DNA of 64,000 nucleotides, from NCBI GenBank assembly GCA_041675145.1, contig JBAYUK010000001.1, positions 11,822 through 75,821 on the forward strand. Reading direction: 5' to 3'. Made by a program: the position numbers and the translations under genes. The notes beneath the pieces are model-generated. The model ran no database searches, had not been told where the DNA came from, and saw nothing but the letters and a program-made list of their open reading frames with translations. Below, piece by piece: positions 12,968-45,084 of the stretch (position 1 is the first letter of the stretch; each line of letters starts with the position of its first letter). Source of the DNA: Patescibacteria group bacterium (GTDB lineage: Bacteria; Patescibacteriota; JACPGU01).

Positions 12968-13518
12968 TGTCAAAATGGTACTATTGACACGAATAGGGTA
13001 TTAGTGTTTTAGTATGGATTTTCTAGGATGTGATAAAAAAAGGGCATAGAGGCAGGTAGGGTAGGGAAATGAAGGGAGTTATATGAAAAACAAATATAAA
13101 AAATTTATATGGAATATTTTTTGAGACAGAAGTTTTGAGGGGATAGTCCACAGTTACCAGAAGGGTGTGGATAACATATGTCGCACAATGTATCTTATGC
13201 GACATAAAGCAGGGGTTTCTGGGGGAAAGCTGGGGCTTGCATGTGGTACGGATTTTGGTGTGTATTTTGCATTGGAATTACTCTTAAAAAAAATAAATTT
13301 ATATTTTTGTATTTCATACTTCTCTCTCAAACTATCTCTCTTTTTTTATAATCATACTTCCCCACCGATTTCTAAATTTTGAGTCTAGGCACCCATAGGT
13401 CCACTTCTTCTTTTTTTAGACAAAATAATAGCGCAGTTTTTAGGCTGCGCCCCGCGAATGCGGATCAAATAGTTCCCCCTACGACGAGACGGAGGCTACC
13501 GTCTCAATTAAAGCCGTA

Positions 13519-15698: not shown

Positions 15699-15706
15699 AG
15701 TGTTTG

Positions 15707-18211
15707 TTAGCCGGCTCGTAGTCTAATTTCTTCTTCGACAATATCACGGTCGCGTCCGTATTTCAATCGAGATAATTGTGTAATTGCCTCAACCAGTTTC
15801 TGGTTTGGTGGTGGCACTTTACTCATATCTTTAAAGTGGTTCAGAGAAAAGGCACGCAAGCTGGTGTTGTTTGCCAGAAGCTTAATATATGAGTTGAAAG
15901 CCTCAACATTGATCAGGTCGTTAACTGAGAATACCGGATCATAGACCTTAGCCATCTCCTCTGCGTCATCTACGCCGATTCGAAATGAGACCATAGTACC
16001 GGCATTACCAAACACAGCGTCATGTATTTGGGTGTTATTATTCTGTGTGAGCTGTCCAATGTACTGATGAGCAACCGTTAGAGCCAGGCCGTACTTGCGT
16101 GCCTCAGACAGGATGTCAGCCACTGCTTTGGTTGAGAAGTTCTGGAACTCGTCCATATATAAGTAAAAGGTCTTACGATCGGCTTCCTTCATATCTGCAC
16201 GACTCATAGCGGCAAGGTAAATCTTAGAGACCATGATAAGGCCTAGAAGAGACATATTCTCCTCCCCTATTCGGCCCTTCGATAAGTTTAAGAGGAGGAT
16301 CTTTTGGTTGTCCATAATCTCACGCACATTAAATGCGCTTTTTTGTTGGGCAATGATCGGGCGCATAATGTCGTTGGCTATAAACTTCGTCATCTTTGAA
16401 GTTACATATGGTACGACATTGGCAAGAGCTGCCTCCCCTCCTGCTTTCTCTGCTTCTTTAAGCCAGTAGTTTTTGATAATAGGGTTTTGACACTTTGAGA
16501 TTTTGTATGCTCTGAAATCTTCGTCGGAAAGTACTTTTGGAATTTCCATTAGGGTCGATCCACTTTCTACATCTTCCATAACGAGTAAGGCGGCGTTTCT
16601 GAAATATTGCTCAAACATCGGTCCACCAGTAGACTTTAAGTCGTAGAGTTTATCAAAGACATTCATAAGTTCTGAAACTGCCAGAGACCGTTCCTCGGGA
16701 CTATTAAATTCAAGTAAGTTGAGTCCCATTGGTCTCTCATAGTCACCGGGGTTGAAGATAATAACATCTTCTGCCCGTTCGCGTGGGATTTGCTGTAGTA
16801 TGCGGTCAATAGATTCGCCGTGCGGATCGATATAGCAAACTCCCCTGCCTGCTCGAATATCTTGCACACACAGATCCTCAATAAAGGTAGATTTACCCGT
16901 ACCAGACTTACCAATTACATACATATGGCGCATCCGATCCTCTGGTCTCATATAGACTGGAGTGCGCACACCACGAAAAATATTAGTACCAAGGTATAGA
17001 CCCTCTTTAGGTACTTCTGGTGGTGCCGGAGCTCGTTTCGAGGTGAGCCATTTAATGCTTGGCGTTTCTGTATTGCGATTTGGGAGGTGGAATAGGCTCG
17101 CTAACTCATCGCAGTTTAAGATGGACTTTGAGCCGTCATATGGCATTGCTCTGAAGATAAAGTCCTGGGTAATCTGTGTATCTGATCTGCCTTTTACTCG
17201 AATGAGCTTGTTCCCGGTTGGGCTATTGAAGACCGTAAAGGAACTGAGGATATTAGCTAGATGCATCTTCGAGTTGGCAACTTCAGGGCTCGCCACTACT
17301 ACGCGAATAACGGTTTCAAAGCCAACCAAAGAAGCCTTCTCCCCTATCATCTTTATCTTTTGTTCGGTTATAGGCGAGAGAGTTTTTTGTTTTTCTTCCT
17401 TATATTCCTCCGTCTTAGAGGCAGCAGAAGCTAAAGTCTTGCCGAAGCTCAAACTACCCTCCCCTATTTTTTTCCATGTGAGGTCTCCTCCTGAAATCTT
17501 CTTCCCTTCTTGGAGCTGCTTGATATGGAATTCAGATCCCTTATGCCAGGTATTTTTAGCCGGTCGAATCAAAAACTGAATGGATGCTGCTTCCCCACTG
17601 GCTAGCTTTGAAAGTGACGACGTAATGGTATTAAGTGTATCTGTCTCAAATTCCTTATATGTTTTAATCGGCAACGAAACAACATCAGAAAGCGTAAGCT
17701 CTGCTGTCTGAACTTTGGTGGTGTCTGAGAAAATATTGTACCTTTCTACTTCTTCCATGTAGGCATCCGGATAAAAGCTATGGATTTGTTTTTCAACGAG
17801 ATCGACGAGTTCCTGTGGTACGGCAACATAGAAGGTAATTACACCGTCAATTGAGGCTATTTCAAATGAAACATGCGCCCCTTTCTTATACCATGACTTG
17901 TTCAGCTGAGTGTCCGCTATAGAATAGAGCGATGAAAACATCTGAGAGGCACGAGCAACCAAGTCTTTTGGATCTTTTTTACTCTCCTCTTCATCACGAC
18001 TCGATTTTTTTGGTACTAAGATCTGGAGCAGTACCATGTTGACTGAGCGAGAAATCTTCCCCTTCTCATACCGGTACTCTTGCAGGATCTGGTAGAGCAA
18101 GACTGCACAGAGTACAAAAAGCCCTGCTCCGATTAAGGCATAAAAAAGAACCAACGGATTTATTCCCGCAGACCCAGCATCAAAACTTGTAGCATTGTAC
18201 GATACCGCCAT
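15707..18211 (-). CDS. Membrane-anchored TrwB/TraD/VirD4-superfamily P-loop ATPase, paralog B
   Basis: 834 aa. N-terminal TM. 'MYVIGKSGTGKSTFIEDLCVQDIRAGRGVCYIDPHGESIDRIL...VIIFNPGDYERPMGLNLLE' is co-linear with paralog A, the N-terminal domains are also similar, and 'LYMDEFQNF' is present. Confidence 0.6.
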   Translation of the reverse strand: MAVSYNATSFDAGSAGINPLVLFYALIGAGLFVLCAVLLYQILQEYRYEKGKISRSVNMVLLQILVPKKSSRDEEESKKDPKDLVARASQMFSSLYSIADTQLNKSWYKKGAHVSFEIASIDGVITFYVAVPQELVDLVEKQIHSFYPDAYMEEVERYNIFSDTTKVQTAELTLSDVVSLPIKTYKEFETDTLNTITSSLSKLASGEAASIQFLIRPAKNTWHKGSEFHIKQLQEGKKISGGDLTWKKIGEGSLSFGKTLASAASKTEEYKEEKQKTLSPITEQKIKMIGEKASLVGFETVIRVVVASPEVANSKMHLANILSSFTVFNSPTGNKLIRVKGRSDTQITQDFIFRAMPYDGSKSILNCDELASLFHLPNRNTETPSIKWLTSKRAPAPPEVPKEGLYLGTNIFRGVRTPVYMRPEDRMRHMYVIGKSGTGKSTFIEDLCVQDIRAGRGVCYIDPHGESIDRILQQIPRERAEDVIIFNPGDYERPMGLNLLEFNSPEERSLAVSELMNVFDKLYDLKSTGGPMFEQYFRNAALLVMEDVESGSTLMEIPKVLSDEDFRAYKISKCQNPIIKNYWLKEAEKAGGEAALANVVPYVTSKMTKFIANDIMRPIIAQQKSAFNVREIMDNQKILLLNLSKGRIGEENMSLLGLIMVSKIYLAAMSRADMKEADRKTFYLYMDEFQNFSTKAVADILSEARKYGLALTVAHQYIGQLTQNNNTQIHDAVFGNAGTMVSFRIGVDDAEEMAKVYDPVFSVNDLINVEAFNSYIKLLANNTSLRAFSLNHFKDMSKVPPPNQKLVEAITQLSRLKYGRDRDIVEEEIRLRAG

Positions 18212-27146: not shown

Positions 27147-27581
27147 TTATTTACGCTTCTTCTTTGCTTTTGCTTTCGCCTTTGGAGCTGCCTTCTTGGT
27201 AGCTTTGCGCTTTGCTGTCTTTTTCTTTGGCATTTCCATCATCATATCTCCCATCATGTGCATGTTGTGATCCATAGCGGTCTCACCTTCAAAACAACAG
27301 CTACCGTCTGAACAATCACGGCAGTGTGGGAAGAACATCCCAATAAGGTATCCAAGAGCGTATCCAACTATTGCCGTAAAGACAACGAGCATCAAGGCAG
27401 AGATTACATCGAATGGTCCTACAGTATAGGCAAGACTAATCATGTGCAAAGATAATACCCAGTCCATAATTGGCTTTGCGATACCGAGTGCTACAAGGAT
27501 AGCCCACATAAGGTGAAGTCCTGAGAGTAGCCCAGCACCAACGAGCCCCGTGCGATTTGGAGAACAGTTATGCATGTACAT
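27147..27581 (-). CDS. Membrane protein with a Cys cluster, a Met/His-rich segment and a Lys-rich tail
   Basis: About 3 TM, then 'PHCRDCSDGSCCFEGETAMDHNMHMMGDMMMEM' and 'KKKTAKRKATKKAAPKAKAKAKKKRK'. Confidence 0.5.
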   Translation of the reverse strand: MYMHNCSPNRTGLVGAGLLSGLHLMWAILVALGIAKPIMDWVLSLHMISLAYTVGPFDVISALMLVVFTAIVGYALGYLIGMFFPHCRDCSDGSCCFEGETAMDHNMHMMGDMMMEMPKKKTAKRKATKKAAPKAKAKAKKKRK

Positions 27582-28124: not shown

Positions 28125-28643
28125 TTATGCTGTTTTCTCACTAATTGCTTTAAGAGCGCGTACCAGTCCAGATGCCGGATTGTTGATGGTGCGAACAAGC
28201 TTGGTTCCAGGGTTCTGAAGGACACCAAGGAGTTTTGCGATCAATTCTTCCTTGCTTGGAATATCTGCGAGCTTCTCGATCTGAGACTTCGTTAAAAACT
28301 TACCATCGGCAAATCCACCGAGGATTTTGAGACTTGGGTTCTTCTTCGTAATCGCCTTAATGGCTTTGGGAATAGTAACCTCATCTTCAAATCCGTATGC
28401 CATAGCGAGCGCTGCTTTGTTTACAATCTGCTCAACAGTTGCTTTATCGCCGAAAGCGATTTCAGCTAGTGTTGATTTGGTGATTGCAAAGTTACCGCCT
28501 TGCTCTTTAATACCACGGCGTAGTGACTCCAAGTCCCCTACCTTCATACCTTTATAGTCGGTAAAAACGATAGCCTTAGACTTTGAAATATCTGATTTAA
28601 CCTTGGCTAAATCCGCGTCTTTTTGTGCTTTACTTTTTGCCAT
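28125..28643 (-). CDS. rplJ: 50S ribosomal protein L10
   Basis: 172 aa with 'AIVFTDYKGMKVGDLESLRR'. Located upstream of rplL. Confidence 0.9.
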   Translation of the reverse strand: MAKSKAQKDADLAKVKSDISKSKAIVFTDYKGMKVGDLESLRRGIKEQGGNFAITKSTLAEIAFGDKATVEQIVNKAALAMAYGFEDEVTIPKAIKAITKKNPSLKILGGFADGKFLTKSQIEKLADIPSKEELIAKLLGVLQNPGTKLVRTINNPASGLVRALKAISEKTA

Positions 28644-28858: not shown

Positions 28859-28922
28859 TTGCAGACACACAAAAAACTACTGGGCACTACGCTTACTACA
28901 AGGAGGCTTGCTTTGAATAATG

Positions 28923-29440
28923 ACTTCCCCGGCACATCCCTTATACTCGGTATAGGGGTAGACCATAGCATTGGTAATGCTGGTGCATCCCCGTTGTGGC
29001 AACACACCAGCCAGCAGATTGAACTGGTTCGGTTTTTAACCGGATCAAGTAAAGAAAAAGGCGTGGTTGTTATTGGAGAAAACGCCTGGTCATTAGCCAA
29101 AGAAGCAGACCACGATCTGCCATGGGATTGCCCTACCATAGTTCTCAGTCAAAACCGGAAATTCACCCTTGAGAAATCTGAAGGCAAAGTTGCCCGCAGC
29201 TTAGCCGGGGTGAAAAAACTCGCCGGCAAGGATCGTCGAATCTGGGTGGTAGGTGGTTACGAAACGTTTGTCAGTTTCCTGCCACATGCCACGATGCTGT
29301 ATGTCAACATCTACCCCGTATCTCTGGGTGGTGACCTGAAGTTCATTCCCTCAGCTCTTCACTGGAACCAGTCAGGTGCCGGCAATATGTTTGCTGAGTA
29401 TGGCACCAAAACACTCACCTTCGCTCGGAATTCAATTTGA
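28923..29440 (+). CDS. Dihydrofolate reductase-family protein (divergent second copy)
   Basis: ORF 28859..29440. Likely TTG start at about 28923 with AGGAGG 6 nt upstream. 'LILGIGVDHSIGNAGASPLW', 'VVVIGENAWSL' and 'RIWVVGGYETFVSFLPHATMLYVNIYPVSLGGDLKFIP' follow the DHFR pattern (IGxxNxLPW, VIMGRxTWESI, VIGGxxxYxxxLP...LYLTxI...GDTxFP). Confidence 0.55.
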
Positions 29441-29457
29441 GCGTTTCACCGAAATGG

Positions 29458-29488
29458 GACCCGCACACTTTGTGTTGCGGGTTTTTTG
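29458..29488 (+). terminator. Rho-independent terminator
   Basis: acccgcacactttgtgttgcgggt plus T6. Confidence 0.65.
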
Positions 29489-29600
29489 TTGTGTAAATTT
29501 GTGTATACCAAGCTAAAATGTTATACTATATTTGCTAACAAAGCACAGTGAACCTGTAAAACTAGCACACAAAAATTTCTTCGCCTAAGGAGGGCACAAC

Positions 29601-30533
29601 ATGTTTACGTATCAGAAAGGCCTAAAGAAGGTGCACAAAAAAGGCATCATTAAAAAAGGACCGCAAGCGCATCCGACCTATTTCTACCCTGGGGTTGAGA
29701 TGCGATTCAACTTGAGAAGGGGCTTCCCTCTTCTCACTATTCGCAGCCTCAAAGGAAGTTGGAACGCCATTATTTCGGAGTTGCTCTGGATTCTATCTGG
29801 TAGCACCAACGCCTATGAGCTGCGAGACAATTATGGCGTTAAACAGCTTTGGCAAAACTATATTGGTCCATGCACTGCACTGCACGCCAAAAACAGGTAC
29901 AAGGGGCGTGCTCCAGGTGAGCTTGGGCCAATTTATGGTCACCAAATGAGAAATCATGGTGCTACCATGAGAAAAGACGGAACATTCAAAAACGATGGCC
30001 TTGATCAGCTCAACATGATTGTTCAGATGCTGAAGGTTATGCCCGAGAATCGTCGCATCATGGCTACCACTTGGAACCTTCGGGATTGCAATGATGATAA
30101 GGATGTGACGAAGGAGAAGACCTACATCGTTCCTTGTCATGGGTCTCAACTCCACTTTTCTGCTCCACAGGATCCAGGGAACCCTAAGCGGCGTCTTCTC
30201 AACCTTGTGCACTTCCAAAGGTCTGGAGATATGCCAATCGGCATTCCGTTTAACATCGCCGAATATGCACTGCTGATGTTTCTGATCGGCAAGATCACTG
30301 GTTATGTGCCGAATGAACTGATTCACTTTGTGTCAGACGCACAGATCTACAGTAACCAAGTTCCGTGGATTGATCCACTGCTGGCGCCGAAACCTTTGGC
30401 TTTGCCAACAGTGACCGTCCCGGATATTTCAGATCTAAGTATTGGAACCATCAAGGAGCTCAAAGCATCTGACTTTGGACTTCATGATTACAACCCGCAT
30501 CCGGCGATTAAAGACATCCCGGTAGAACTGTAA
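29601..30533 (+). CDS. thyA: Thymidylate synthase (ThyA family)
   Basis: 'MRFNLRRGFPLLTIRSL', 'ISELLWILSGSTN', 'LGPIYGHQMRNHG', active-site 'IVPCHGSQ', and 'IPFNIAEYALL' with the uracil-specifying Asn. AAGGAGGG RBS upstream. Confidence 0.85.
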   Translation: MFTYQKGLKKVHKKGIIKKGPQAHPTYFYPGVEMRFNLRRGFPLLTIRSLKGSWNAIISELLWILSGSTNAYELRDNYGVKQLWQNYIGPCTALHAKNRYKGRAPGELGPIYGHQMRNHGATMRKDGTFKNDGLDQLNMIVQMLKVMPENRRIMATTWNLRDCNDDKDVTKEKTYIVPCHGSQLHFSAPQDPGNPKRRLLNLVHFQRSGDMPIGIPFNIAEYALLMFLIGKITGYVPNELIHFVSDAQIYSNQVPWIDPLLAPKPLALPTVTVPDISDLSIGTIKELKASDFGLHDYNPHPAIKDIPVEL

Positions 30534-30542
30534 GGAGGCTCT

Positions 30543-31574
30543 ATGTCAGAACAGAAAATACCCGCCCTTGTGACGGCTATGACCTTCGAACGAGTGATCG
30601 GCTATCAGGGTTGTATGCCTTGGGGTCGCAACTCTCAAGACTTAAAAGCGTTTAAAGCGCTGACCACTAGTGATCCTGTCGGCAACGTGGTGATCATGGG
30701 ACATACAACCTGGAATAGTTTGCCTGAAAAGGCACGGCCACTTCCCGATCGTTTTAATATCGTGATGAGTAACGACAAATCTCTCACGGTGTTGCCTGGC
30801 GCATTCGTGGCGCACAGTGTCGAGGAAGCGCTCGCCCTTGTGCCAGATAACTACGCAGTCTGGGTGATCGGAGGCATGTTCATCTACAACCTCTTCGAGC
30901 CCTATGCTGACAAGATCTACATCACCCTGATCAATGAAGAACACATCGGTGATGCGTTCTTTCCACTTACCGCTGGTGACGAGTGGCAGGAGAACTATGA
31001 AGCGTGCCTTGAACTTGGTGGTAACATCACCAGGAACGAATACCGGCGCATTCTGCCTTCTGCTCGGTTGCTTCGCGTGCAGCAGGCCGTTGCAAATGCT
31101 GAGCAAAACGTTTCAGACATAGAAGTGGTTAACACAGCCAACGCACAGTCGGCTGAATACCAAAAAGATTTGCAGCAAATTCAGAAAACAGGCATCTGTC
31201 CGTTTTGTCTCGGTGGTAAAACAGATCTGAGCAACCCACTGCTGATGGAAATAAATGATTGGCGACTGATGCCAAACATCTTCAGCTACAAGGAAGCCAA
31301 GCACGCCTTCTTGCTTATTCCTGTTCGCCACATGACGGATGTCTCTGAGATGACCGTGAGTGACTTTCTGGGAGTTCAGGCGCTGGTTGCGTGGGCTCGT
31401 AAGAACTACGGCATCCCAGGTGGCGCAATTGCCTTAAGCGCAGTTGCAATGCGTTTTGGTCCTACGCCTAGCACGGGGGCAACTGTCACCCACTTGCATG
31501 GGCATTTCATCACTCCCCACCTTAATGCGGAAGGAACAGCGGCTAGTCCGCATGTCAACTTCCCGATTGGGTAA
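30543..31574 (+). CDS. folA: Dihydrofolate reductase fused to a C-terminal HIT-like (histidine triad) domain
   Basis: N-terminal ~165 aa carry 'CMPWGRNSQDLKAFKALT', 'VIMGHTTWNSLP', 'RFNIVMS' and 'VWVIGGMFIYNLFEPYADKIYITLINEEHIGDAFFP', a canonical DHFR. The C-terminal ~175 aa carry 'CPFC' and the triad 'HLHGHFI'. Confidence 0.7.
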   Translation: MSEQKIPALVTAMTFERVIGYQGCMPWGRNSQDLKAFKALTTSDPVGNVVIMGHTTWNSLPEKARPLPDRFNIVMSNDKSLTVLPGAFVAHSVEEALALVPDNYAVWVIGGMFIYNLFEPYADKIYITLINEEHIGDAFFPLTAGDEWQENYEACLELGGNITRNEYRRILPSARLLRVQQAVANAEQNVSDIEVVNTANAQSAEYQKDLQQIQKTGICPFCLGGKTDLSNPLLMEINDWRLMPNIFSYKEAKHAFLLIPVRHMTDVSEMTVSDFLGVQALVAWARKNYGIPGGAIALSAVAMRFGPTPSTGATVTHLHGHFITPHLNAEGTAASPHVNFPIG

Positions 31575-31589
31575 GAAAACAATTAACAG

Positions 31590-31624
31590 AAGGGCTTCTC
31601 CGTATGGTGGAGCCCTCTTTTTTT
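31590..31624 (+). terminator. Rho-independent terminator
   Basis: agggcttctccgtatggtggagccct plus T8. Confidence 0.65.
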
Positions 31625-31726
31625 ACATAAATTTGCTAAATCTAGCCAAATATGGCATAATTTCCATAGACCCTAGACTAAGTCTTGGAAAAACGTCCAT
31701 TTACATATCATGGAAAGGATTGATGT

Positions 31727-32005
31727 ATGCACCCATTACTTCAGACGCTTATTAGCGCTCTACTTCTTGTGCTGATGTTTAGTGGAGGCTACTACGCCAG
31801 CGGGTATATTATCCGCTGGAATGAGAAGCATCTCACTGGCACCGACATAGATAAAAAAAGACTGTGGGCCGCAGTTGAAACCAATGCGGACTACCGGCTT
31901 CACTGGGGCAGGAATATTGCTCATCTAAGAATTGTGATGACTATTCTCTCCCCTATCACCATCGGCAAGGCGATCTTCCTACGCATTCGCGGAGGATCGC
32001 TATAA
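31727..32005 (+). CDS. Small membrane hypothetical protein
   Basis: 92 aa with N-terminal TM LISALLLVLMFSGGYY. Promoter TTGCTA-17-CATAAT lies upstream at about 31633-31661. Confidence 0.4.
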   Translation: MHPLLQTLISALLLVLMFSGGYYASGYIIRWNEKHLTGTDIDKKRLWAAVETNADYRLHWGRNIAHLRIVMTILSPITIGKAIFLRIRGGSL

Positions 32006-32032: not shown

Positions 32033-32836
32033 ATGAAAATGAGCGAAGAAAATGCACTGGTTAAAGTTGATAAAAGTTCCAGGCGGGAAACGGCTATCGA
32101 GCAAGCAAAGAGAATGGTCGAAGCATGCTTCTTGAAGGAAAATCGAGAAGAAAGAGTGCAGGGCTATCACCTGAAACTCAAAGAGGCCGAAGAGGAGCTG
32201 AAGTCGCTCCTTCCTATAGAAGGACAAGTGGTAAAGGGCATACTAGAGAGAAAAATTAGGCGCCTCAAGTACAGGATTGCAGACCCCGAGTTTGAGGAGC
32301 GCTACCCTCTTCTAAGTATGGAGGTGTTAAAGATGAGGAATGCTGAAGGATTCCCAGTGTTTGCTCCATTCTTTTTGGATTGCCAGACATTCTCGCTTTA
32401 CTTCAGCGGTGGTCGTGCCTACAGAGACGAAAGGGGTGGTGAAGTTATGAGACTACCCTCTGATATGAGGGCGATGTACCAAGATATCTTTGCCAAATGG
32501 AAAAAGGAAGCTAATAGTGTGCATTACTTTAGCGCCAAGATCACAGCACAGTTCAGTGGCGTGATACCACAAGCTGTTCGTAAAAGGATTGAACAAGTTT
32601 TGCCGGATTTTCAGCCAGGAAAGAAAAAAGTGTCGTTCTGGAATCGATTCGCTGGCCCTCAATCCACTCTCAATATTTTCTTACTTGCAGAAGTAAGGCG
32701 TTGGGAGGTGGATAAGGTGGTTATCCAGAACCCTGATCCCTTGGTAGTTGGGTACAGATACGGAGAGCTGCGACTGATTGACCATTTCGACGAAACTCCG
32801 ATGGAAGAGTATATTCGGCGGGAATTTACTCTCTGA
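32033..32836 (+). CDS. Hypothetical protein (267 aa)
   Basis: Clean ORF ending at a terminator ccccctcactgaaaggtgaggg plus T7. Confidence 0.5.
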   Translation: MKMSEENALVKVDKSSRRETAIEQAKRMVEACFLKENREERVQGYHLKLKEAEEELKSLLPIEGQVVKGILERKIRRLKYRIADPEFEERYPLLSMEVLKMRNAEGFPVFAPFFLDCQTFSLYFSGGRAYRDERGGEVMRLPSDMRAMYQDIFAKWKKEANSVHYFSAKITAQFSGVIPQAVRKRIEQVLPDFQPGKKKVSFWNRFAGPQSTLNIFLLAEVRRWEVDKVVIQNPDPLVVGYRYGELRLIDHFDETPMEEYIRREFTL

Positions 32837-32957: not shown

Positions 32958-33833
32958 CTACTCGATGTTAGATGGTTCAAGCTGCACATGGATGACTTCA
33001 ACGCCGAAAGCGTGGAAGACTTCCGGCACATCCAGCGAAGCATGACCTTCAAGGAAATACACTTTCTTGACGCCAGCGGCTGCGATAAGTTTTGCGCAGA
33101 CGGGGCATGGAAAGGTAGAGATGTAGAGCGAGGTTCCCTCAAGAGACATACCTATTCGGGCTGCCTTTGAGATGATGGCCTGCTCGCTGTGAATGGCTGA
33201 GCAGAGCTCGCCGTTTTTTCCAGGCTCACAAGCATCACGGGGGTCGCCGTTGTAATATGGCGCCCACTCATTGGGGAGGTGCTGGTTGTGGTCTGCGAGC
33301 AAAATAGATCCTTCCAGCACAATCACGCCACCAACTTGTCTCCACCAATCGGAGGCAAGGCTCGCTTCACTTAAAGCGATACCCATCATCTCCTGGCTGA
33401 ATGTATCAGTGCTCATGGAGATATTGGGACTGACTGGCTTTTGGGTGAAAACATTCTTGCGATCCCACTGAAGGAAGGATGGGTCAACATGAATGGTTGG
33501 ATGCCGATCTGCAAGGAAACTTGAGAGGTATTCCTCGGTGACACCAAGAGACACTTCATCGCTTCCACAGTAAACCTCTTCAAGGTCGCAGTGTTTGGTG
33601 ATGTCCGACACCGAGCCCACACTGGTGAAGACCATGCGTGGTTCAATGCCGTGCAAGATGGTGGCCGCAACATCGCTGGGAAGCGCACGGATGTCAGGGC
33701 ACCGCTGGTAACTGGAGGCAAGTTTCAGGCTTGGGATGAAAACCATCTCTACTTCCTGATCTGCCCACTTTTTAACCAGCGAAAGGTTACCGCTGTGAAC
33801 AACGGGGTAGTTTAAGATTCCGATACGATACAC
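32958..33833 (-). CDS. dCMP/cytidine deaminase-family protein with a ~150-aa N-terminal nucleotidyltransferase-like extension
   Basis: C-terminus 'CSAIHSEQAIISKAARIG...YISTFPCPVCAKLIAAAGVKKVYF' has the HxE...PCxxC zinc deaminase motifs of ComEB/dCMP deaminase. N-terminus 'RIGILNYPVVHSGNLSL' resembles a degenerate GxFxPxHxGH motif. GTG start with AAGGAAAC RBS. Confidence 0.65.
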   Translation of the reverse strand: MYRIGILNYPVVHSGNLSLVKKWADQEVEMVFIPSLKLASSYQRCPDIRALPSDVAATILHGIEPRMVFTSVGSVSDITKHCDLEEVYCGSDEVSLGVTEEYLSSFLADRHPTIHVDPSFLQWDRKNVFTQKPVSPNISMSTDTFSQEMMGIALSEASLASDWWRQVGGVIVLEGSILLADHNQHLPNEWAPYYNGDPRDACEPGKNGELCSAIHSEQAIISKAARIGMSLEGTSLYISTFPCPVCAKLIAAAGVKKVYFLEGHASLDVPEVFHAFGVEVIHVQLEPSNIE

Positions 33834-33865: not shown

Positions 33866-34581
33866 CTATTGCTGAGATTCACCCTTTTCTTCCCGTATTC
33901 GGGTAATTTCCTTGGCGGCCTTGAGGATGTTTGCTGAGAACTTTGGATTCCCTGCTTCGATTTTTTTGACCAGATCGGGATAACCCAATATGGTGGTTGC
34001 GATCTCTTCACAGATGTCAGTTGTTGATCCCGGTGCTTGACGAGGGATGAGATTGATGCGTGTGCAATAGAACCCAATTTCCTTGAGTTGCCTTTTTGGG
34101 TAACTCTCTTTAATAGCGGTGAACACATCAGGGAGAATTTCTTTAATGAGTTTGTAAGCCCAGATGCCTTTTTCGTTCACATCGTCAACAAAAGTCACGA
34201 TATCGACCGCACTCGTATGGGCGCACATTTCCGCGCGTTCATACTGATTGGTGTATGGTCGACTGGCATGCTTGTAGCGCTTTACCGATTCGTCGGTGTC
34301 TATCCCTAGAATAAGGAGGTCACCTTCTCTTTTTGCTTTCGCCATGTAGCGCATGTGTCCAATATGGGTCATGTCCATAGTCCCCATAGTGCAAGCAATT
34401 CGTGCACCAAATTGCCTCTTTTCTCTGACGAAAGTTCCAAGGTCGTTGGAGTCAAGGATAATTTTCCTTTGAACTTCGACCGGCATTGCTTCGAATTTGG
34501 AAAAGTCCATTTTCCCAATCACCGGATCTTTCTTAATCCGATCAAGTTTTAATGGGTGTTGCAATATTTGCTCGAGATTCA
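33866..34581 (-). CDS. Cytidylyltransferase-family (HIGH-motif nucleotidyltransferase) protein
   Basis: 'ACTMGTMDMTHIGHMRYMAKAKREGDLLILGIDTDESVKRYK' matches the TagD/HldE-type GxFDxxHxGH...GDxLxVxxxxD motif. Start chosen at ATG 34581 (MNLEQ) with GGAGGC upstream. Confidence 0.6.
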
Positions 34582-34785
34582 TGGTTGCCTCCTTAAGGCG
34601 TAGTTTTTTACTCGGATTGTCAAGGTGCCACAGGCACATAGAGATGAGGGCGCTATGCCCTCATGGGTATGGTAGCATACAAAAAGAAGGGCGGGCAATC
34701 TTGCAAAGTTTGCCTATTTTATGTATAAAATTACCCGCCAGACTCATGTGAGTGTGGCGGGTTAGAAAGTGGCTTATTTGAGCTG

Positions 34786-36531
34786 TTATTGCATCTTGAT
34801 GAAAATGCTGGATGGTTGAGTTCCCTGGTTGGCTCGTTGCGGTTCCTCGATCTTACTGAGAAAGCACGTGTCCATTGTGCGCCCAAGGAGTGCACACTTC
34901 CAGGTAGCGTGGATACTGCAATTCTCCACATGATCATCCTGGTCAAAGACGAAGGACTCGGGGTCATCTGCACACTGGCCGAACAAGTCCCCTTCCTTCA
35001 TGGTGGATTTGTATGTGTACAGATACTTATGGTGTTCGACAAAGTCATGCTCGGTTAGTTCCCAGATGAACTTCTCGTGTGCTGCATCGATTGTTTTTTT
35101 AAGCCAGGCAGACCTATCTTCACTAGGAGACATACTTTCATCCGGAAAGAATATTGGTCCATGCGACGCCCTTGCATCAACTTGAGCATGTTTGTTAAAG
35201 AATGCAACACGAGGCCTAGTGCATAGCACTATTTTTCCACTCATGTTGCGTACTGTCCCGTCATCTATACAGAACACAATACGCTCCATTTTGTCTGTGA
35301 CGCCCTTAGGCTCAGTTTCCCAGGAAAACATTCCCTCCTTGCTTTTAACCCAGGTTATTGGGAGTGTGCGCGTGCTGTATAGCCGTTCTCCCTTTCGTGC
35401 CCAAAACGGACTCGTGATCATGAGTTGCGGGATCTCCGCAATGTAGCTCGTCTCCTTCCCTTCTTCGGATGGGTTGGGATCCTGTATAGTAAAGGCCATC
35501 TCAATGGTTGCGTTATTGACCTTTGTTTGTGTAGCTTGAGCTTTAGCTACTACCATGCCGTTTTTATACAGCTGGATCCAGATTTTGCCCAAGCGCTTAG
35601 TAAACTCACCCTTGGTTACTTCGACGGTGCCACTTAATGCAAAGGTGTTCTGTATGTTCTCAGTAGTGATGCTGGGCACACGGTTGAACTTCAAAATCTT
35701 TGTGTTGCGCAGTGCCACCGTCTTGCCTTCTTGCAGTGCCGAGTAAAGACTGGCCTGGGTAAGGTCGTTTGCAAAGATGGCGGTAGTGATCAGCCCCATA
35801 CCAGAAGCGCGCCATGATCCGTCTGAGTGGAAGTCTTGTCCTCCCACCACAAACTGGTGCCGGCCTTTTTTAACGCCAGCAAGCAACAGTGAGAGGTCGT
35901 GGGTGTAGTTGACTGTCCCGCCAGTTGCAAGCGCCTTGATGTCGAGCCCGACCGTGTTCATCATTTCAATGGCATCAAATTGGTCAGCGCTGTCCCACCA
36001 GTTTTTGCAGTCTTTCGGGTGGTTGTAGACACAGATACCTTTCTCGTAATGGATGATATCTATAACACGTGCTACATCCCCTTCGCCGTATGTGTCTTGG
36101 TAGGTGTAGGACTCGGTGGTGGTTACTGGTGAAAACGCATTCATATGGCAGTAGCTTTTGGCGGGATTCTTCGCAACAGTCACTTCGCGTCCTGGGTAGA
36201 TGACGAAAATGTGATCTTCGTTTAAGATGTTGACTTCCTCCAGGTAGTCAGAAAACGAGTTTACTCCTGAGTGTTGGTGGAAGTTGTAAAACAGCTTTCC
36301 TTCCCGGTGGTGTAGGCTTTGCGGGGTAAAGAAACAGTCCCCGTGTTCACTCATGAAGATGAACTGCAGACCGAGTTGCTTGGCGCGTGTTTTGATTTCA
36401 CTGATGCCAAATTCACCGTCGCTATATGCAGAGTGGACATGTTCCCAGCCGGTATACGGCGTGTAGTCTTGGGCATGTGCCCGGTGGATCATAAGGAATA
36501 ACCCTATGATAAGTAGTATGCGCATGCGCAT
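34786..36531 (-). CDS. Secreted PHP-domain metal-dependent phosphoesterase (581 aa)
   Basis: Signal peptide MRMRILLIIGLFLMIHRAHA. PHP motifs 'HVHSAYSDGEFG' and 'IFMSEHGD', with a large C-terminal beta-rich extension. Confidence 0.65.
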   Translation of the reverse strand: MRMRILLIIGLFLMIHRAHAQDYTPYTGWEHVHSAYSDGEFGISEIKTRAKQLGLQFIFMSEHGDCFFTPQSLHHREGKLFYNFHQHSGVNSFSDYLEEVNILNEDHIFVIYPGREVTVAKNPAKSYCHMNAFSPVTTTESYTYQDTYGEGDVARVIDIIHYEKGICVYNHPKDCKNWWDSADQFDAIEMMNTVGLDIKALATGGTVNYTHDLSLLLAGVKKGRHQFVVGGQDFHSDGSWRASGMGLITTAIFANDLTQASLYSALQEGKTVALRNTKILKFNRVPSITTENIQNTFALSGTVEVTKGEFTKRLGKIWIQLYKNGMVVAKAQATQTKVNNATIEMAFTIQDPNPSEEGKETSYIAEIPQLMITSPFWARKGERLYSTRTLPITWVKSKEGMFSWETEPKGVTDKMERIVFCIDDGTVRNMSGKIVLCTRPRVAFFNKHAQVDARASHGPIFFPDESMSPSEDRSAWLKKTIDAAHEKFIWELTEHDFVEHHKYLYTYKSTMKEGDLFGQCADDPESFVFDQDDHVENCSIHATWKCALLGRTMDTCFLSKIEEPQRANQGTQPSSIFIKMQ

Positions 36532-36599: not shown

Positions 36600-37247
36600 C
36601 TATTTTTTACCGTTGCAGGTGGTAGGATCCCACAGTCCCCTGTTGTTGCTTTTAGCATCAGACTGGGCTTCTTTAAACTGAGCCTGATACTGGTACGGTG
36701 TCTGGTAGGTGTACTCATACGCATATCCTTCCTCTACCATGAGCTGGTTGAATAGCGTCCCGTCTGGCAGATACACATAGCGCAAAAGCCTCCCGTATTT
36801 GTCGCGACTATCCTGGGTCGGGTCGGGTTCAAGCGCTATCTGTGTACCGGTAAGAATTTCCTTAGCGTGTTTACTGGCCTCCTGGCCAAAACACTCCACT
36901 GGCTTTCGTGGGTCTACCGTCTCGGGTGTGTTAATGCCGATTAATCTAATCTTTTCGTCCTTCCCATTGATATGTGCTATGAGGGTATCGCCGTCCACTA
37001 CCAGCACTACCGGAACAAGGTCTGATGCCTGTGGGGTAGTTGGTGGTGGAGTAGTGGGGTGTGTAGCTACCTCTTTTTCTACTCCCCTCTCTTTTTGGGT
37101 TGAGTGGGTATTTTGCGTAGCTACTTCTTTTTTCTCTGCGGGTGGTAGTGTAGTCTCGGCATGCGCATACCAGGCAGAAATGAAGAGGAGGATACTAAAG
37201 GTAAGATATGATAGGAGTTTTTTGGTAGTCATAGAAATACTATACAC
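36600..37247 (-). CDS. Secreted thermonuclease (staphylococcal nuclease/SNase family)
   Basis: Signal/TM followed by a Pro/Thr linker. 'VVDGDTLIAHINGKDEKIRLIGINTPE' and 'YGRLLRYVY' are SNase catalytic motifs. Confidence 0.75.
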   Translation of the reverse strand: MYSISMTTKKLLSYLTFSILLFISAWYAHAETTLPPAEKKEVATQNTHSTQKERGVEKEVATHPTTPPPTTPQASDLVPVVLVVDGDTLIAHINGKDEKIRLIGINTPETVDPRKPVECFGQEASKHAKEILTGTQIALEPDPTQDSRDKYGRLLRYVYLPDGTLFNQLMVEEGYAYEYTYQTPYQYQAQFKEAQSDAKSNNRGLWDPTTCNGKK

Positions 37248-37300: not shown

Positions 37301-37996
37301 TTATCCAAGCTTGCTTGTTTCTACCTTAATTCCGGGTCCCATAGTTGACGAGATCGCAATTGACTTAATGAGTGGACCTTTCACTGAAGACGGCTTATTC
37401 GCTACGAGAGCAGTAACAAAAGTATCAAAGTTTTCTTTGAGCTGAGCGGTCGTAAATGATACCTTTCCAATACCGGCATGAATACCAGCCAGTGAGTCAG
37501 CACGAAACTCGATTTTTCCTTTTTTGAAGTCACGAATAGTGTCTGCAAAGTTCGGTGTAACGGTACCAACCTTTGGGTTTGGCATCATACCACGAGATCC
37601 AAGAATCTTAGCGACCTTAGCAATCTTTGGCATCATGTCAGGGGTTGCTACCGCGATATCGAATGCGAGCCAGCCCTTGGTAATCTTTTCAATAAGTTTT
37701 TCAGTACCCACTTCGTCTGCTCCAGCATCAGTTGCTGCCTTTTCGTCTTTTTCTGAGACAAAGGCAATAACGCGTACTTTTTTACCAGTACCGTTAGGGA
37801 GAGTGGTAGTAGAACGGATACCCTGGTCAGCCTTAGTAGGGTTGGTGGTAAGCTTCACGTGTACTTCAACCGTACCATCAAACTTTGCAGTGTTGGTTTT
37901 TTTCACTAACTCAAGTGCTTCCTCTGTTGAGTATTTCTTGAGTAGGTCGAGACCTTCCACTGCTTTCGTATATTTTTTTCCGTATAGTTTTGCCAT
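37301..37996 (-). CDS. rplA: 50S ribosomal protein L1
   Basis: 'MAKLYGKKYTKAVEGLD...' is a typical L1. Start set at the internal ATG (MAKLYG) of ORF 37301..38017. Confidence 0.9.
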   Translation of the reverse strand: MAKLYGKKYTKAVEGLDLLKKYSTEEALELVKKTNTAKFDGTVEVHVKLTTNPTKADQGIRSTTTLPNGTGKKVRVIAFVSEKDEKAATDAGADEVGTEKLIEKITKGWLAFDIAVATPDMMPKIAKVAKILGSRGMMPNPKVGTVTPNFADTIRDFKKGKIEFRADSLAGIHAGIGKVSFTTAQLKENFDTFVTALVANKPSSVKGPLIKSIAISSTMGPGIKVETSKLG

Positions 37997-38047
37997 ATAT
38001 CTCCTTCTGTGGTGCAAGCGACAGAGTCTCCCACAAATTAGGTAGTA

Positions 38048-44828: not shown

Positions 44829-45084
44829 GCTGCTTCCTTCCCGCCTTTGGCGTTTACGATGTGAGTTTTTAAGAGTGCGTTTTGGGACAAAAAATCGGAG
44901 AAAATCCTCCGATGAGTAGTATACACGAAATGAGTAAATAAGGGAATAAAAAAGGGAGTCGCTCATATGATGCGACTCCCCAAGCTTGGGGTCTGGCGAC
45001 CCGGGAACTCCAGAGGCTGGAGTCTCGCCCACAAGGCGATAGATGTCACTCCCGACCGGGAGTGACCAAGAAATGGCAGATAAA

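What the first reader, a model, noticed from the sequence alone, without database searches (positions are those of the whole stretch)
28923..31574. Two DHFR-family genes flanking thyA, one fused to a HIT (histidine-triad) domain
The canonical FolA (30543..) carries a C-terminal ~175-aa domain with CPFC and HLHGHFI, the HIT nucleotide-hydrolase/transferase signature. To my knowledge this fusion has not been described as standard. It could couple folate reduction to hydrolysis of a nucleotide conjugate such as Ap4A or an NMP-adduct. The upstream 28923..29440 product is a second, highly diverged DHFR-fold protein (IGNAG...SPLW; VVVIGENAW; WVVGGYETFVSFLP...LYVNIYP...GDLKFIP). It may be a trimethoprim-insensitive paralog or a pterin or riboflavin-type reductase.
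Basis: partly seen in the sequence, partly recalled or inferred. Interest (0 to 1): 0.55.

Follow-up and report, generated by a model that had tools for sequence, protein, structure and literature searches.

The report
DHFR fused to thymidylate-cluster HIT enzyme
A candidate-phyla-radiation bacterium encodes a normal dihydrofolate reductase fused to a histidine-triad nucleotide enzyme, and this enzyme belongs to an unstudied subfamily that sits in the thymidylate (DNA "T") synthesis gene cluster of over a hundred species, which suggests a missing step or control in a pathway thought to be fully known.

Summary
Gene 30543..31574 encodes a real two-domain protein. Its N-terminal domain is a canonical DHFR with all catalytic residues. 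Its C-terminal domain is an intact zinc-type HIT domain (CPFC, H263, HLHGHFI). The upstream gene (true start TTG 28913) is a real DHFR homolog, but it has lost Asp27, Arg57, Thr113, Thr46 and Phe31. It is therefore not a working or trimethoprim-resistant DHFR.

The fusion is not unique. 46 of the 150 best HIT relatives in metagenomes are DHFR-HIT fusions. The larger result is the context. In 112 species genomes this HIT subfamily lies beside thyA (93%), a long dCMP deaminase (88%), a cytidylyltransferase-like enzyme (73%) and DHFR (72%), and often beside dUTPase and SHMT. The deaminase carries a previously unrecognised nucleotidyltransferase-fold N-domain. Most genomes are Patescibacteria, about 15 are Actinomycetota, and one separately found locus is a DPANN archaeon. 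A HIT-ThyA fusion also exists.

The HIT enzyme therefore most likely acts on the pyrimidine nucleotide side of thymidylate synthesis, not on folate. Its substrate is unknown. I found no publication on it. I rate it a new variant of a known kind with moderately high interest.

The parts
28913..29440 (+). Degenerate DHFR paralog (175 aa, TTG start, AAGGAGG SD at 28901-28907). It forms its own transcription unit.
   Evidence: Pfam DHFR_1 28.6 bits. 28% identity to the fusion's DHFR domain, E 3e-13. Key residues lost: D27Q, R57C, T113N, T46A, R44E, and F31 to V or L. SD and start. The chance that a 175-codon frame stays open at this base composition is about 1e-4.
29456..29491 (+). Intrinsic terminator after the DHFR-like gene (hairpin followed by U6).
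   Evidence: RNA fold -19 kcal/mol, z -2.5. Sequence.
29601..30533 (+). thyA, thymidylate synthase (310 aa). Its stop codon lies inside the SD of the next gene.
   Evidence: Pfam E 7.5e-60, TIGR03284 above cut-off. E58, Y94, R126, R127, C146, H147, R166, S167, D169, N177 and Y209 are kept. R21->P. SD AAGGAGG before the ATG.
30543..31052 (+). DHFR domain of the fusion (aa 1-170).
   Evidence: Pfam DHFR_1 118 bits. All catalytic and ligand residues are kept. AF2 model pLDDT mostly 90-97 in this domain. Foldseek: 3jw3 TM 0.88, 2.3 A. SD AAGGAGG lies 5 nt before ATG 30543.
31053..31127 (+). Inter-domain linker (about aa 171-195), predicted as a low-confidence helix.
   Evidence: pLDDT 52-56 for aa 171-190. 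About 20 aa longer than in the orthologs.
31128..31574 (+). HIT domain (aa ~196-343): C219xxC222, H263, R304-F-G306, G312-A-T-V, H317-L-H319-G-H321.
   Evidence: Profile hits to solved HIT, Fhit and GalT chains. Pfam HIT in 4/4 orthologs. Matches the family profile at E 1.2e-56. Family conservation table.
31588..31625 (+). Intrinsic terminator after the fusion gene (hairpin followed by U7).
   Evidence: RNA fold -17.1 kcal/mol, z -2.9. Also listed.
32958..33833 (-). Long dCMP deaminase (291 aa). aa 1-137 (33423..33833) form a nucleotidyltransferase-fold N-domain with the motif PVVHSGN. The family consensus is PV(L/I)HxGY, and the window protein carries Asn in place of that Tyr. aa ~140-291 form the deaminase domain.
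   Evidence: Pfam dCMP_cyt_deam_1 E 3.8e-14. The N-domain has no Pfam or PDB sequence hit. AF2 pLDDT 86.5, pTM 0.78. Foldseek hits to TagD, Fom1 cytidylyltransferase, HldC, PPAT, PanC and NMNAT. At least 399 full-length homologs.
33866..34639 (-). Cytidylyltransferase-like enzyme (257 aa, T-H-I-G-H motif). In homologous loci it is translationally coupled to the deaminase.
   Evidence: Pfam CTP_transf_like E 1.6e-13, rfaE_dom_II 9e-23. PDB: ECT 2e-13, HldC 8e-9, TagD 5e-7. Genes overlap in L002-L004 and L132-L135.

Best explanation
Gene 30543..31574 encodes a genuine bifunctional protein.

Shown by sequence and fold: the N-terminal domain is an ordinary NADPH-dependent dihydrofolate reductase. 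It recycles the dihydrofolate made by ThyA, whose gene lies 9 nt upstream and is translationally coupled to it.

Shown by sequence: the C-terminal domain is a catalytically intact histidine-triad nucleotidyl-transfer enzyme. It has a GalT-like Cys2His2 zinc site (C219, C222, H263, H317) and the nucleophile His319.

Shown by comparative genomics: it belongs to a distinct, unnamed HIT subfamily that is a fixed member of a conserved thymidylate gene cluster. The cluster holds thyA, folA, this HIT, a long dCMP deaminase with a nucleotidyltransferase-fold N-domain, and a cytidylyltransferase-like enzyme. dut and glyA are often present too.

Inferred: the HIT forms a covalent (deoxy)pyrimidine-NMP-His319 intermediate and cleaves an alpha-phosphate conjugate (NMP-X, NDP-X or dNTP). 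That conjugate is probably made or used by the neighbouring cytidylyltransferase-like enzyme. The reaction would deliver dCMP/dUMP to the deaminase/ThyA steps, or release dTMP from them.

The fusion to DHFR arose by joining two adjacent cluster genes (dhfr->hit). It fixes co-expression and proximity within a thymidylate enzyme complex, and it does not imply that the HIT domain acts on folate or NADPH.

The upstream 175-aa gene is a lineage-specific DHFR paralog. It has lost the catalytic and substrate-binding residues, but it is kept as an expressed protein with its own SD and terminator. It is most likely non-catalytic or neofunctionalised.
For: Domain identities.

The fusion recurs:
- 4 full-length orthologs at 29-34% identity.
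- 46 of the best 150 representatives of the HIT profile are DHFR-HIT, and about 100 are standalone proteins of 140-165 aa. 682 representatives score E<=1e-10.

Cluster conservation:
- A motif scan of GTDB species genomes gave 112 loci with a strong HIT. Within the same 8-kb block, thyA is present in 104, the long dCMP deaminase in 98, the CTP_transf_like gene in 82, DHFR in 81 and SHMT in 30.
- dUTPase is present in 28 loci.
- The gene directly upstream of the HIT on the same strand is thyA in 47 loci and dhfr in 42.
- The reciprocal test, seeded on the deaminase, found ctp + deaminase + HIT (E 1e-49 to 1e-60) + ThyA in 4 of 4 loci.

Other fusions link the same set of genes: HIT-ThyA (P0134), and apparently DHFR-ThyA (L030) and CTP_transf-deaminase (L092); these last two are single stop-to-stop frames read here, not called genes.

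An Aenigmarchaeota locus keeps ctp, deaminase, HIT and ThyA with no DHFR nearby.

Catalytic and Zn residues are 97-99% conserved across 153 family members.

Operon signals.

Upstream paralog: with the open-frame argument.

CPR folA genes complement E. coli delta-folA (PMC11974145).
Against: - No substrate is known for this HIT subfamily. The proposed reaction rests only on gene neighbourhood and motif logic.
- The nearest curated families score far below their cut-offs: ATP adenylyltransferase 16 bits against 290, plus weak HinT and GalT matches.
- The window's own HIT domain is weak against Pfam (E 0.057). It has a 5-aa insertion with low pLDDT (aa 299-302), and the usually conserved His255 is shifted by one residue.
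- The inter-domain geometry is uncertain (pTM 0.61).
- For the upstream paralog, no diverged ortholog exists, so purifying selection could not be measured.
Confidence: 0.6

Rival explanations
1. Carrier-linked route. The cytidylyltransferase-like enzyme tags a cytosine deoxynucleotide (dCTP + X-phosphate -> dCDP-X/dCMP-X). The long deaminase binds the tag with its nucleotidyltransferase-fold N-domain and deaminates the conjugate. ThyA may even methylate the conjugate. The HIT then removes or transfers the tag, giving dUMP/dTMP, or dTDP/dTTP if phosphate or pyrophosphate is the acceptor.
For: - Every overlap or fusion links consecutive steps of this chain: ctp-deaminase overlap or fusion, HIT-ThyA fusion, DHFR-HIT and DHFR-ThyA fusions.
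- The deaminase N-domain has a nucleotidyltransferase fold but lacks the second His of HxGH. This fits a binding domain rather than a catalytic one.
- The HIT has a GalT-type zinc site, and 29% of the family has HxHxQ, as in transferases and phosphorylases.
- Cluster ThyAs have mostly lost two of the four phosphate-binding arginines: R21 is kept in 12 of 102, and R127 is Thr in 73 of 102.
Against: - This is entirely inferential and no such conjugate is known.
- R21 and R127 equivalents are known (from my own knowledge of L. casei TS mutagenesis) to tolerate substitution.
- dUTPase, dNK and thymidylate kinase sit beside the cluster in L134, so the classical route is present.
- The window's own ThyA keeps R126 and R127.
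Confidence: 0.17
2. The HIT is a generic Hint/Fhit-like hydrolase of Ap4A/Ap3A or NMP-phosphoramidates. It would be a housekeeping or alarmone-clearing enzyme, and its fusion to DHFR would couple folate reduction to that hydrolysis or be incidental.
For: The best solved-structure matches include Hint-type HIT proteins and Fhit. The window protein has the full HxHxHxx motif. NCBIfam's most frequent weak match is the Ap4A phosphorylase family.
Against: - A generic housekeeping HIT would not sit beside thyA in 93% of 112 genomes, nor be fused to both DHFR and ThyA.
- The subfamily has its own signature (N-terminal helix, CPFC, RFG, GATV in place of GQ[ST]V) and reaches no curated family cut-off.
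- The archaeal locus has no DHFR nearby.
Confidence: 0.15
3. The HIT domain is a non-catalytic nucleotide sensor that regulates DHFR, ThyA or the deaminase (for example by binding dTTP or dCTP).
For: The third motif residue varies between His and Gln across the family. The classical dCMP deaminase is allosterically controlled by dCTP and dTTP (established knowledge).
Against: The nucleophile His319, His317, the Zn ligands and R304/G306 are 97-99% conserved across 153 members. That pattern is typical of an active enzyme.
Confidence: 0.06
4. The upstream DHFR-like gene is a working but unusual reductase, either a trimethoprim-insensitive DHFR or a pterin/riboflavin-type reductase.
For: It keeps the DHFR fold markers G15, W22, G43, L54, G95-G96 and D122. 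It also keeps a strong SD and a terminator.
Against: - D27Q, R57C, T113N, T46A, R44E, S49L, and F31 replaced by V or L.
- The NCBIfam trimethoprim-resistance models score only 13-23 bits against cut-offs of 300-400.
- No RibD_C hit.
- A fully canonical DHFR is encoded 1.1 kb away.
Confidence: 0.07

Closest known systems
Bifunctional DHFR-TS (protozoa, plants) and the thyA-folA gene pair
   Same: DHFR is physically or genetically coupled to thymidylate synthase so that dihydrofolate is recycled. Here thyA and the DHFR gene are translationally coupled, and L030 appears to carry a DHFR-ThyA fusion, read as one stop-to-stop frame.
   Different: The fused partner in the window is a HIT nucleotide enzyme, not ThyA. 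No such DHFR architecture was found in the papers searched.
Nit-Fhit 'Rosetta-stone' fusion (PDB 1ems)
   Same: A HIT domain is fused to a metabolic enzyme in some lineages and is separate in others, which implies a shared pathway. 1ems is among the profile hits.
   Different: The partner is different (nitrilase against DHFR or ThyA). The HIT here is not in the Fhit branch: it has a CPFC zinc site, GATV in place of GQTV, and variable H/Q.
GalT and Ap4A phosphorylase (ATP adenylyltransferase, Rv2613c type) branch of the HIT superfamily
   Same: CxxC...H...HxH zinc-site layout. 29% of the family has HxHxQ. The CPFCPG string aligns with GalT 6k5z. The most frequent NCBIfam match is ATP adenylyltransferase.
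   Different: It is a single 145-aa HIT domain rather than the tandem half-barrels of GalT. Scores are far below family cut-offs. The genomic context is unrelated to sugars or Ap4A.
Hint/HinT nucleoside phosphoramidases
   Same: Size, the HxHxHxx motif and an N-terminal CxFC. These give the best solved-structure E-values (3oj7, 5uvm).
   Different: There is an extra conserved N-terminal helix (N-A-R..Y...L..I). RFG replaces N-x-G, and Ala replaces the conserved Gln. The gene is fixed next to thyA.
Phage T4 cd-td-frd genes and the dNTP-synthetase complex
   Same: dCMP deaminase, thymidylate synthase, DHFR and dUTPase activities are co-encoded, with evidence of physical association (fusions here).
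   Different: The cluster is cellular, and no phage hit was found by tblastn. It adds a HIT enzyme, a cytidylyltransferase-like enzyme and a nucleotidyltransferase-fold domain on the deaminase, none of which T4 has.

Membership tests
DHFR / FolA (Pfam PF00186): fusion N-domain | Profile match above Pfam's gathering score | tested here: met
   118.2 bits against GA 25, aa 9-152. The NCBIfam equivalog NF008037 scores 90.8 bits, below its cut-off of 168.
DHFR / FolA: fusion N-domain | Catalytic acid (Asp27) and ligand residues M20, W22, F31, T35, T46, R57, G95-G96, Y100, T113 | tested here: met
   All are present. R44 is His, as in a minority of the orthologs.
DHFR / FolA: fusion N-domain | DHFR fold | tested here: met
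   AF2 pLDDT mostly 90-97 over the domain. Foldseek 3jw3 TM 0.88, rmsd 2.3 A.
DHFR / FolA: fusion N-domain | NADPH-dependent reduction of dihydrofolate | not testable with these tools
   Other CPR folA genes complement E. coli delta-folA (PMC11974145).
DHFR / FolA: upstream ORF 28913..29440 | Profile match above Pfam's gathering score | tested here: met
   28.6 bits against GA 25, but only aa 70-162 match. PDB phmmer hits are DHFRs, apart from one weak hit near the E-value limit.
DHFR / FolA: upstream ORF 28913..29440 | Catalytic acid and folate/NADPH-binding residues | tested here: not met
   D27Q, R57C, T113N, T46A, R44E, S49L, and F31 replaced by V or L. It is a homolog, but it should not be filed as a functional DHFR.
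HIT superfamily (Pfam HIT PF01230 and DcpS_C PF11969; same clan from my own knowledge) | His-phi-His-phi-His-phi-phi motif with the central nucleophile His | tested here: met
   H317-L-H319-G-H321-F-I323. H317 and H319 are 99% conserved in 153 relatives.
HIT superfamily | Significant profile similarity to HIT families or structures | tested here: met
   The window domain alone is below GA (HIT 14.5 bits, DcpS_C 20.3). All 4 fusion orthologs hit PF01230 (best 6.4e-7). Family profiles hit 3oj7 at 1.4e-7, 5uvm at 2.4e-7 and Fhit at 1.5e-5.
HIT superfamily | alpha+beta HIT fold | tested here: inconclusive
HIT superfamily | Covalent nucleotidyl-histidine intermediate | not testable with these tools
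   Needs biochemistry.
GalT branch of HIT | HxHxQ motif | tested here: not met
   The window has H321. The family has 68% H and 29% Q.
GalT branch of HIT | Zn site made of CxxC + His + first His of the triad | tested here: met
   C219, C222, H263 and H317 are present and 97-99% conserved. CPFCPG aligns to GalT 6k5z. Metal binding itself was not tested.
GalT branch of HIT | Two tandem HIT half-domains in one chain | tested here: not met
   There is a single HIT domain. A few relatives are tandem (P0066, P0087, P0116).
Ap4A phosphorylase / ATP adenylyltransferase (NCBIfam NF052622) | Score above the curated cut-off | tested here: not met
   Best E-value 4.2e-5; member 1 of the 30 scored 16 bits against a cut-off of 290. 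12 of 30 members match weakly.
Thymidylate synthase ThyA (TIGR03284): gene 29601..30533 | Score above the cut-off, catalytic Cys146, and dUMP-specifying Asn177 | tested here: met
   152.2 bits against a cut-off of 108.35. C146, H147, R166, S167, D169, N177 and Y209 are present.

The most novel reading that the evidence does not exclude
Patescibacteria, some Actinomycetota and a DPANN archaeon may make thymidylate through a so-far unknown, conjugate-based branch. In this reading a cytidylyltransferase-like enzyme, a deaminase with a nucleotide-handle-binding domain and this HIT enzyme process an alpha-phosphate-tagged pyrimidine deoxynucleotide. ThyA's altered phosphate pocket (R21 and R127 mostly lost) would be adapted to that substrate. 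The DHFR-HIT, HIT-ThyA and CTP_transf-deaminase fusions would then be the footprints of one multi-enzyme complex.
Probability: 0.15. Interest if true: 0.85.

Novelty: new variant of a known kind. Interest (0 to 1): 0.62.

Why it matters
Thymidylate synthesis (dCMP deaminase/dUTPase -> ThyA -> DHFR/SHMT) is textbook metabolism and a major drug target. It is assumed to be complete.

This analysis finds three extra conserved components locked into that gene cluster across a very large bacterial radiation, about 15 Actinomycetota (including cultured ones) and one archaeal locus:
- an unnamed HIT enzyme;
- a cytidylyltransferase-like enzyme;
- a nucleotidyltransferase-fold domain on the dCMP deaminase.

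The fusions link these components to each other. This points to an uncharacterised enzymatic step, a salvage entry point or a control mechanism for dTMP supply in organisms that depend on scavenged nucleotides.

Four cultured actinomycetes carry the cluster: Streptomyces phyllanthi, S. hintoniae, Actinocorallia aurantiaca and Actinomadura spongiicola. The question is therefore directly testable by genetics and biochemistry.

The work also corrects annotation. These proteins are currently labelled only 'dihydrofolate reductase', 'deaminase' or 'hypothetical'.

Tried and rejected
- **Phage or mobile-island origin of the block between rplJ and rplA.** Rejected. rplK (42 loci), nusG (32) and rplA (13) are recurrent neighbours of the cluster in other genomes. 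tblastn found no phage match. PADLOC gave no hit beyond a 57-residue deaminase-core match and an SNase model.
- **HIT as a substitute for dUTPase.** Rejected. dUTPase lies beside the cluster in 28 loci.
- **HIT plus nucleotidyltransferase as a bypass of thymidylate kinase.** Disfavoured. Tmk and dNK sit beside the cluster in L134.
- **The 179-aa ORF upstream of thyA in L001 as an ortholog of the window's DHFR-like gene.** Rejected. It is a second HIT paralog (hhalign 98%).
- **The weakly scoring DHFRs in other clusters as relatives of the degenerate paralog.** Rejected. Those rows keep Asp27, Thr46 and Thr113, and all but one (L069) keep Arg57.
- **dN/dS on the paralog.** Impossible. The only other copies are 100% identical DNA.
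- **The search for related loci with HIT alignments.** Failed twice because no stretch was conserved enough. I replaced it with a hand-made degenerate motif scan. About 8 of its 120 matches were chance hits, as expected.
- **Structure prediction with locus-derived sequences.** I redid it with database homologs.
- **Single origin of the fusion.** A rough NJ tree scatters the fused forms (32 state changes). The tree is too weak to decide between repeated fusion and poor resolution.
- **Literature.** Six full-text searches found no paper on this fusion or cluster.

Full report
**What is in the window**

The window comes from a Patescibacteria (CPR) chromosome. The fusion protein is 100% identical to an NCBI entry named 'MAG: dihydrofolate reductase [Patescibacteria group bacterium]' on a 428-kb contig. 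The surrounding genes are housekeeping genes: nusG, rplK, rplA, rplJ, rplL, IleRS, tgt, an EPSP_synthase-family gene (aroA- or murA-type), and others.

On the + strand, the ORF listing gives ORFs at 28859..29440, 29601..30533 and 30543..31574.

Pfam assigns these as follows:
- DHFR_1 to the first ORF (28.6 bits, just above the gathering score).
- Thymidylat_synt to the second (E 7.5e-60).
- DHFR_1 to residues 9-152 of the third (E 3.6e-34), with only a marginal DcpS_C/HIT-clan hit for its C-terminal part.

**Gene boundaries and expression signals**

- The upstream gene most likely starts at TTG 28913, five bases after AAGGAGG. This is the 175-aa form called in other assemblies (P0009).
- It is followed by an intrinsic terminator at 29456-29491.
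- thyA has its own AAGGAGG. Its TAA stop lies inside the AAGGAGG that precedes ATG 30543.
- A second terminator follows the fusion gene at 31588-31625.
- The transcription units are therefore [DHFR-like] and [thyA-folA::HIT].
- NCBI's shorter start (Met13, 331 aa) would remove the first beta-strand of DHFR, so 30543 is preferred.
- Two independent assemblies (ENA, Logan) are 100% identical to the window over 20 kb, and the NCBI MAG encodes the identical protein. The fusion junction is therefore not an assembly error.

**The fusion protein**

N-terminal domain:
- Aligned with E. coli and L. casei DHFR and 45 other fusion proteins, it keeps M20, W22, D27, F31, T35, T46, S49, R57, G95, G96, Y100, T113 and D122.
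- An AlphaFold2 model built on 46 fusion sequences has mean pLDDT 86.6. It shows two confident domains joined by a low-confidence helical linker at about residues 171-195.
- Foldseek against the PDB matches this domain to bacterial DHFRs at TM 0.88 and 2.3 A.

C-terminal domain:
- It carries C219-P-F-C222, H263, R304-F-G306, G312-A-T-V and H317-L-H319-G-H321-F-I.
- A four-sequence profile of the fusion C-domains hits solved GalT (6k5z, 3.8e-6), a HIT protein (5uvm, 4.6e-6) and Fhit.
- All four members hit Pfam HIT (best 6.4e-7).
- A 30-sequence profile of standalone relatives hits 3oj7 (1.4e-7), 5uvm, HP0404, Fhit, GalT and Ap4A phosphorylase.
- It is therefore a HIT-superfamily domain with a GalT-like Cys2His2 metal-site pattern.
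- It reaches no curated NCBIfam family. The most frequent weak match is ATP adenylyltransferase (Ap4A phosphorylase), where member 1 of the 30 scored 16 bits against a cut-off of 290.

**How common the fusion is**

A word-indexed search found only three other full-length fusions. An exhaustive HMMER search of 1.84 billion cluster representatives with the HIT profile gave a different picture:
- 1698 hits at E<=1e-3.
- 682 hits at E<=1e-10.
- 91 hits at E<=1e-30.

Of the best 150 hits, 46 are 276-340-aa proteins (most 300-340 aa) with an N-terminal DHFR, shown by phmmer with E. coli DHFR. About 100 are standalone proteins of 140-165 aa. A few are tandem HIT-HIT proteins. One (P0134) is a HIT-ThyA fusion.

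**The conserved cluster**

The contigs that encode the fusion orthologs show this order: thyA, DHFR-HIT, then convergently a ~280-aa dCMP deaminase and a ~195-aa CTP_transf_like gene. A standalone HIT (P0012) occupies the same slot between thyA and the deaminase, with a separate DHFR and SHMT nearby.

I back-translated the family motif R-x-G-x5-G-[AG]-[TS]-[VI]-x-H-[LF]-H-x-[HQ] and scanned one genome per GTDB species. With HMMs built here, 112 of these loci hold a strong member of the subfamily. Within the same 8-kb block:

| Neighbour | Loci (of 112) |
|---|---|
| thyA | 104 |
| long dCMP deaminase | 98 |
| CTP_transf_like | 82 |
| DHFR | 81 |
| SHMT | 30 |

These counts are lower bounds, because the blocks are cut at fixed 8-kb boundaries.

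- dUTPase recurs in 28 loci.
- The gene directly upstream of the HIT on the same strand is thyA in 47 loci and dhfr in 42. Seven of those 42 are fused.
- The reciprocal test, seeded on four long-deaminase homologs from long contigs, found ctp overlapping the deaminase, the HIT (E 1e-49 to 1e-60) and ThyA in all four.

Taxonomic spread:
- Most carriers are Patescibacteria: Saccharibacteria, many Paceibacterota/Parcubacteria lineages, Kazan, WWE3, Uhr-, Ames- and Moranbacteria.
- About 15 are Actinomycetota. These include cultured Streptomyces phyllanthi, S. hintoniae, Actinocorallia aurantiaca and Actinomadura spongiicola.
- One deaminase-seeded locus is an Aenigmarchaeota MAG. There, ctp, the deaminase and the HIT accompany a ThyA fused to MtrA-like and pterin-binding domains, and no DHFR is nearby.

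**The other cluster proteins**

- The CTP_transf_like protein keeps the T-H-I-G-H motif. Its closest matches are ethanolamine-phosphate, heptose-phosphate and glycerol-phosphate nucleotidyltransferases.
- The N-terminal 137 residues of the deaminase have no Pfam or PDB sequence match. An AF2 model (pLDDT 86.5, pTM 0.78) matches the HIGH-type nucleotidyltransferase fold: TagD TM 0.65, Fom1 cytidylyltransferase TM 0.63, plus HldC, PPAT, PanC and NMNAT. E-values are only about 2e-3. The family motif is PV(L/I)HxGY in place of HxGH (the window protein reads PVVHSGN), which suggests nucleotide binding rather than catalysis.
- Among 102 cluster ThyAs, the catalytic set E58, Y94, C146, S167 and D169 is invariant, and R166 and N177 are nearly so (101 and 99 of 102). 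The phosphate-binding R21 is kept in only 12, and R127 is Thr in 73. The window's own ThyA has R21->P but keeps R126 and R127.

**Interpretation**

Shown:
- A canonical DHFR is fused to an intact HIT enzyme.
- This HIT subfamily is tightly and reciprocally linked to thyA, a two-domain dCMP deaminase and a nucleotidyltransferase.
- The set is also linked by HIT-ThyA, and apparently by DHFR-ThyA and CTP_transf-deaminase fusions; these last two are single stop-to-stop frames, L030 and L092, and the L092 one is in a high-GC genome and needs checking.

Inferred:
- The HIT acts on the nucleotide side of thymidylate synthesis through a covalent NMP-His319 intermediate. It cleaves or transfers an alpha-phosphate conjugate that is connected with the neighbouring nucleotidyltransferase.
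- The DHFR-HIT fusion is a simple joining of neighbouring genes. It ensures co-expression and proximity, not a folate-dependent HIT reaction.

The more radical reading is that tagged deoxynucleotides are the true intermediates, and that ThyA's depleted phosphate pocket reflects this. The fusion pattern is consistent with that reading, but it is unproven. Classical enzymes (dUTPase, dNK, Tmk) sit beside the cluster in at least one genome.

**The upstream paralog**

- It is a true DHFR homolog.
- It has D27Q, M20S/P, R44E, T46A, S49L, R57C and T113N, and F31 is replaced by V or L depending on the alignment.
- It keeps the fold markers G15, W22, G43, L54, G95-G96 and D122.
- All of the roughly 85 other cluster DHFR rows tabulated that cover these positions keep D27, T46 and T113, and all but one divergent row keep F31 and R57. 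No diverged ortholog of this paralog was found, so it appears lineage-specific.
- At 28% identity it still has an intact 175-codon frame (chance about 1e-4), a strong SD and its own terminator. This argues that it is maintained as a protein.
- It should not be called a functional or trimethoprim-resistant DHFR.

**Novelty**

Six full-text searches found nothing on a DHFR-HIT fusion or on a HIT enzyme in the thymidylate cluster. A 2025 study showed that CPR folA genes complement E. coli delta-folA, but it does not mention a HIT partner (PMC11974145). Database names for these proteins are 'dihydrofolate reductase', 'deaminase' or 'hypothetical protein'.

I rate it a new variant of a known kind: a new HIT subfamily and a new domain architecture in a known pathway. 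Interest is moderately high because it exposes unexplained conserved components in a core pathway and can be tested in cultured actinomycetes.

Noticed in passing
window 32958..33833 (-), N-domain 33423..33833: The dCMP deaminase carries a 137-aa N-terminal domain with no Pfam or PDB sequence match. Its predicted fold is a HIGH-type nucleotidyltransferase with a degenerate PV(L/I)HxGY motif (PVVHSGN in the window protein). At least 399 homologs share this architecture and are annotated only as 'deaminase' or 'hypothetical'.
   Followed up: yes
window 33866..34639 (-): A cytidylyltransferase-like enzyme (THIGH motif, nearest ECT/HldC/TagD) is always paired with the long deaminase and usually overlaps it. 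The window copy is about 60 aa longer at its N-terminus than its homologs. Its substrate is unknown.
   Followed up: partly
L010-L129 thyA genes; window 29601..30533: Cluster-associated ThyAs have mostly lost two of the four dUMP-phosphate-binding arginines (R21 kept in 12 of 102; R127 is Thr in 73 of 102). The DRTGTGT loop is replaced by x-[PIQR]-[QH]-G-x-x-A. The catalytic residues are nearly invariant.
   Followed up: partly
window 31727..32005 and 32033..32836 (+): Two ORFs (92 and 267 aa) with no Pfam, NCBIfam or PADLOC match lie between the fusion and the deaminase. In other genomes these two genes are adjacent, so this is a lineage-specific insertion. Strong bidirectional hairpins lie at 32865-32931.
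   Followed up: no
window 28125..28643 (rplJ) to 37301..38017 (rplA): The rplKA and rplJL ribosomal genes are separated by an 8.6-kb block holding the thymidylate cluster plus PHP and SNase genes. Linkage of the cluster to nusG-rplK-rplA recurs in 13-42 other genomes, so this is old synteny.
   Followed up: partly
window 34786..36531 (-) and 36600..37247 (-): A 581-aa PHP-domain protein and a staphylococcal-nuclease homolog (PADLOC candidate model 'SNc+LTD', E 8e-48) lie next to the cluster. They may be nucleic-acid scavenging enzymes that feed nucleotide salvage.
   Followed up: no
L001:2392-2931; also L011, L012, L016, L018, L023, L040, L064, L074, L079, L083, L107, L120: A second HIT ORF lies in the same cluster in 12 species genomes, usually a more diverged paralog (in L083 the two copies score alike); L001 has one as well (HKHRHIIV motif there). 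A few proteins are tandem HIT-HIT (P0066, P0087, P0116).
   Followed up: partly
L135 (Aenigmarchaeota MAG GCA_016932615.1) 11697..13148: An archaeal ThyA is fused to MtrA-like and pterin-binding (DUF4346) domains. It sits beside the same ctp, long deaminase and HIT trio, with no DHFR nearby.
   Followed up: no
L021, L024, L076, L092 and other Actinomycetota loci: The whole cluster occurs in about 15 Actinomycetota, including cultured Streptomyces, Actinocorallia and Actinomadura. S. phyllanthi also has a dCTP-deaminase-like gene next to it. Saccharibacteria live on actinomycetes, so horizontal transfer is worth testing.
   Followed up: no
window 14982..18211 (-): There are type IV secretion-like genes: a TrbC/VirB2-type pilin and an 834-aa VirD4/TraG-like coupling ATPase.
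   Followed up: no
window 27147..27581 (-): A small membrane protein has a Met/His-rich stretch (MDHNMHMMGDMMMEM) and a lysine/alanine-rich tail. It lies between rplL and an aminotransferase, and its function is unknown.
   Followed up: no
window 44217..45314 (-): A 365-aa protein has an adenylate-kinase domain only in residues 174-331, preceded by about 170 aa with no family match.
   Followed up: no
window 30543 vs 30579: The NCBI annotation of this MAG starts the fusion at Met13 (331 aa). The SD position and the DHFR beta-strand 1 support ATG 30543 (343 aa), as called in the ENA and Logan assemblies.
   Followed up: yes
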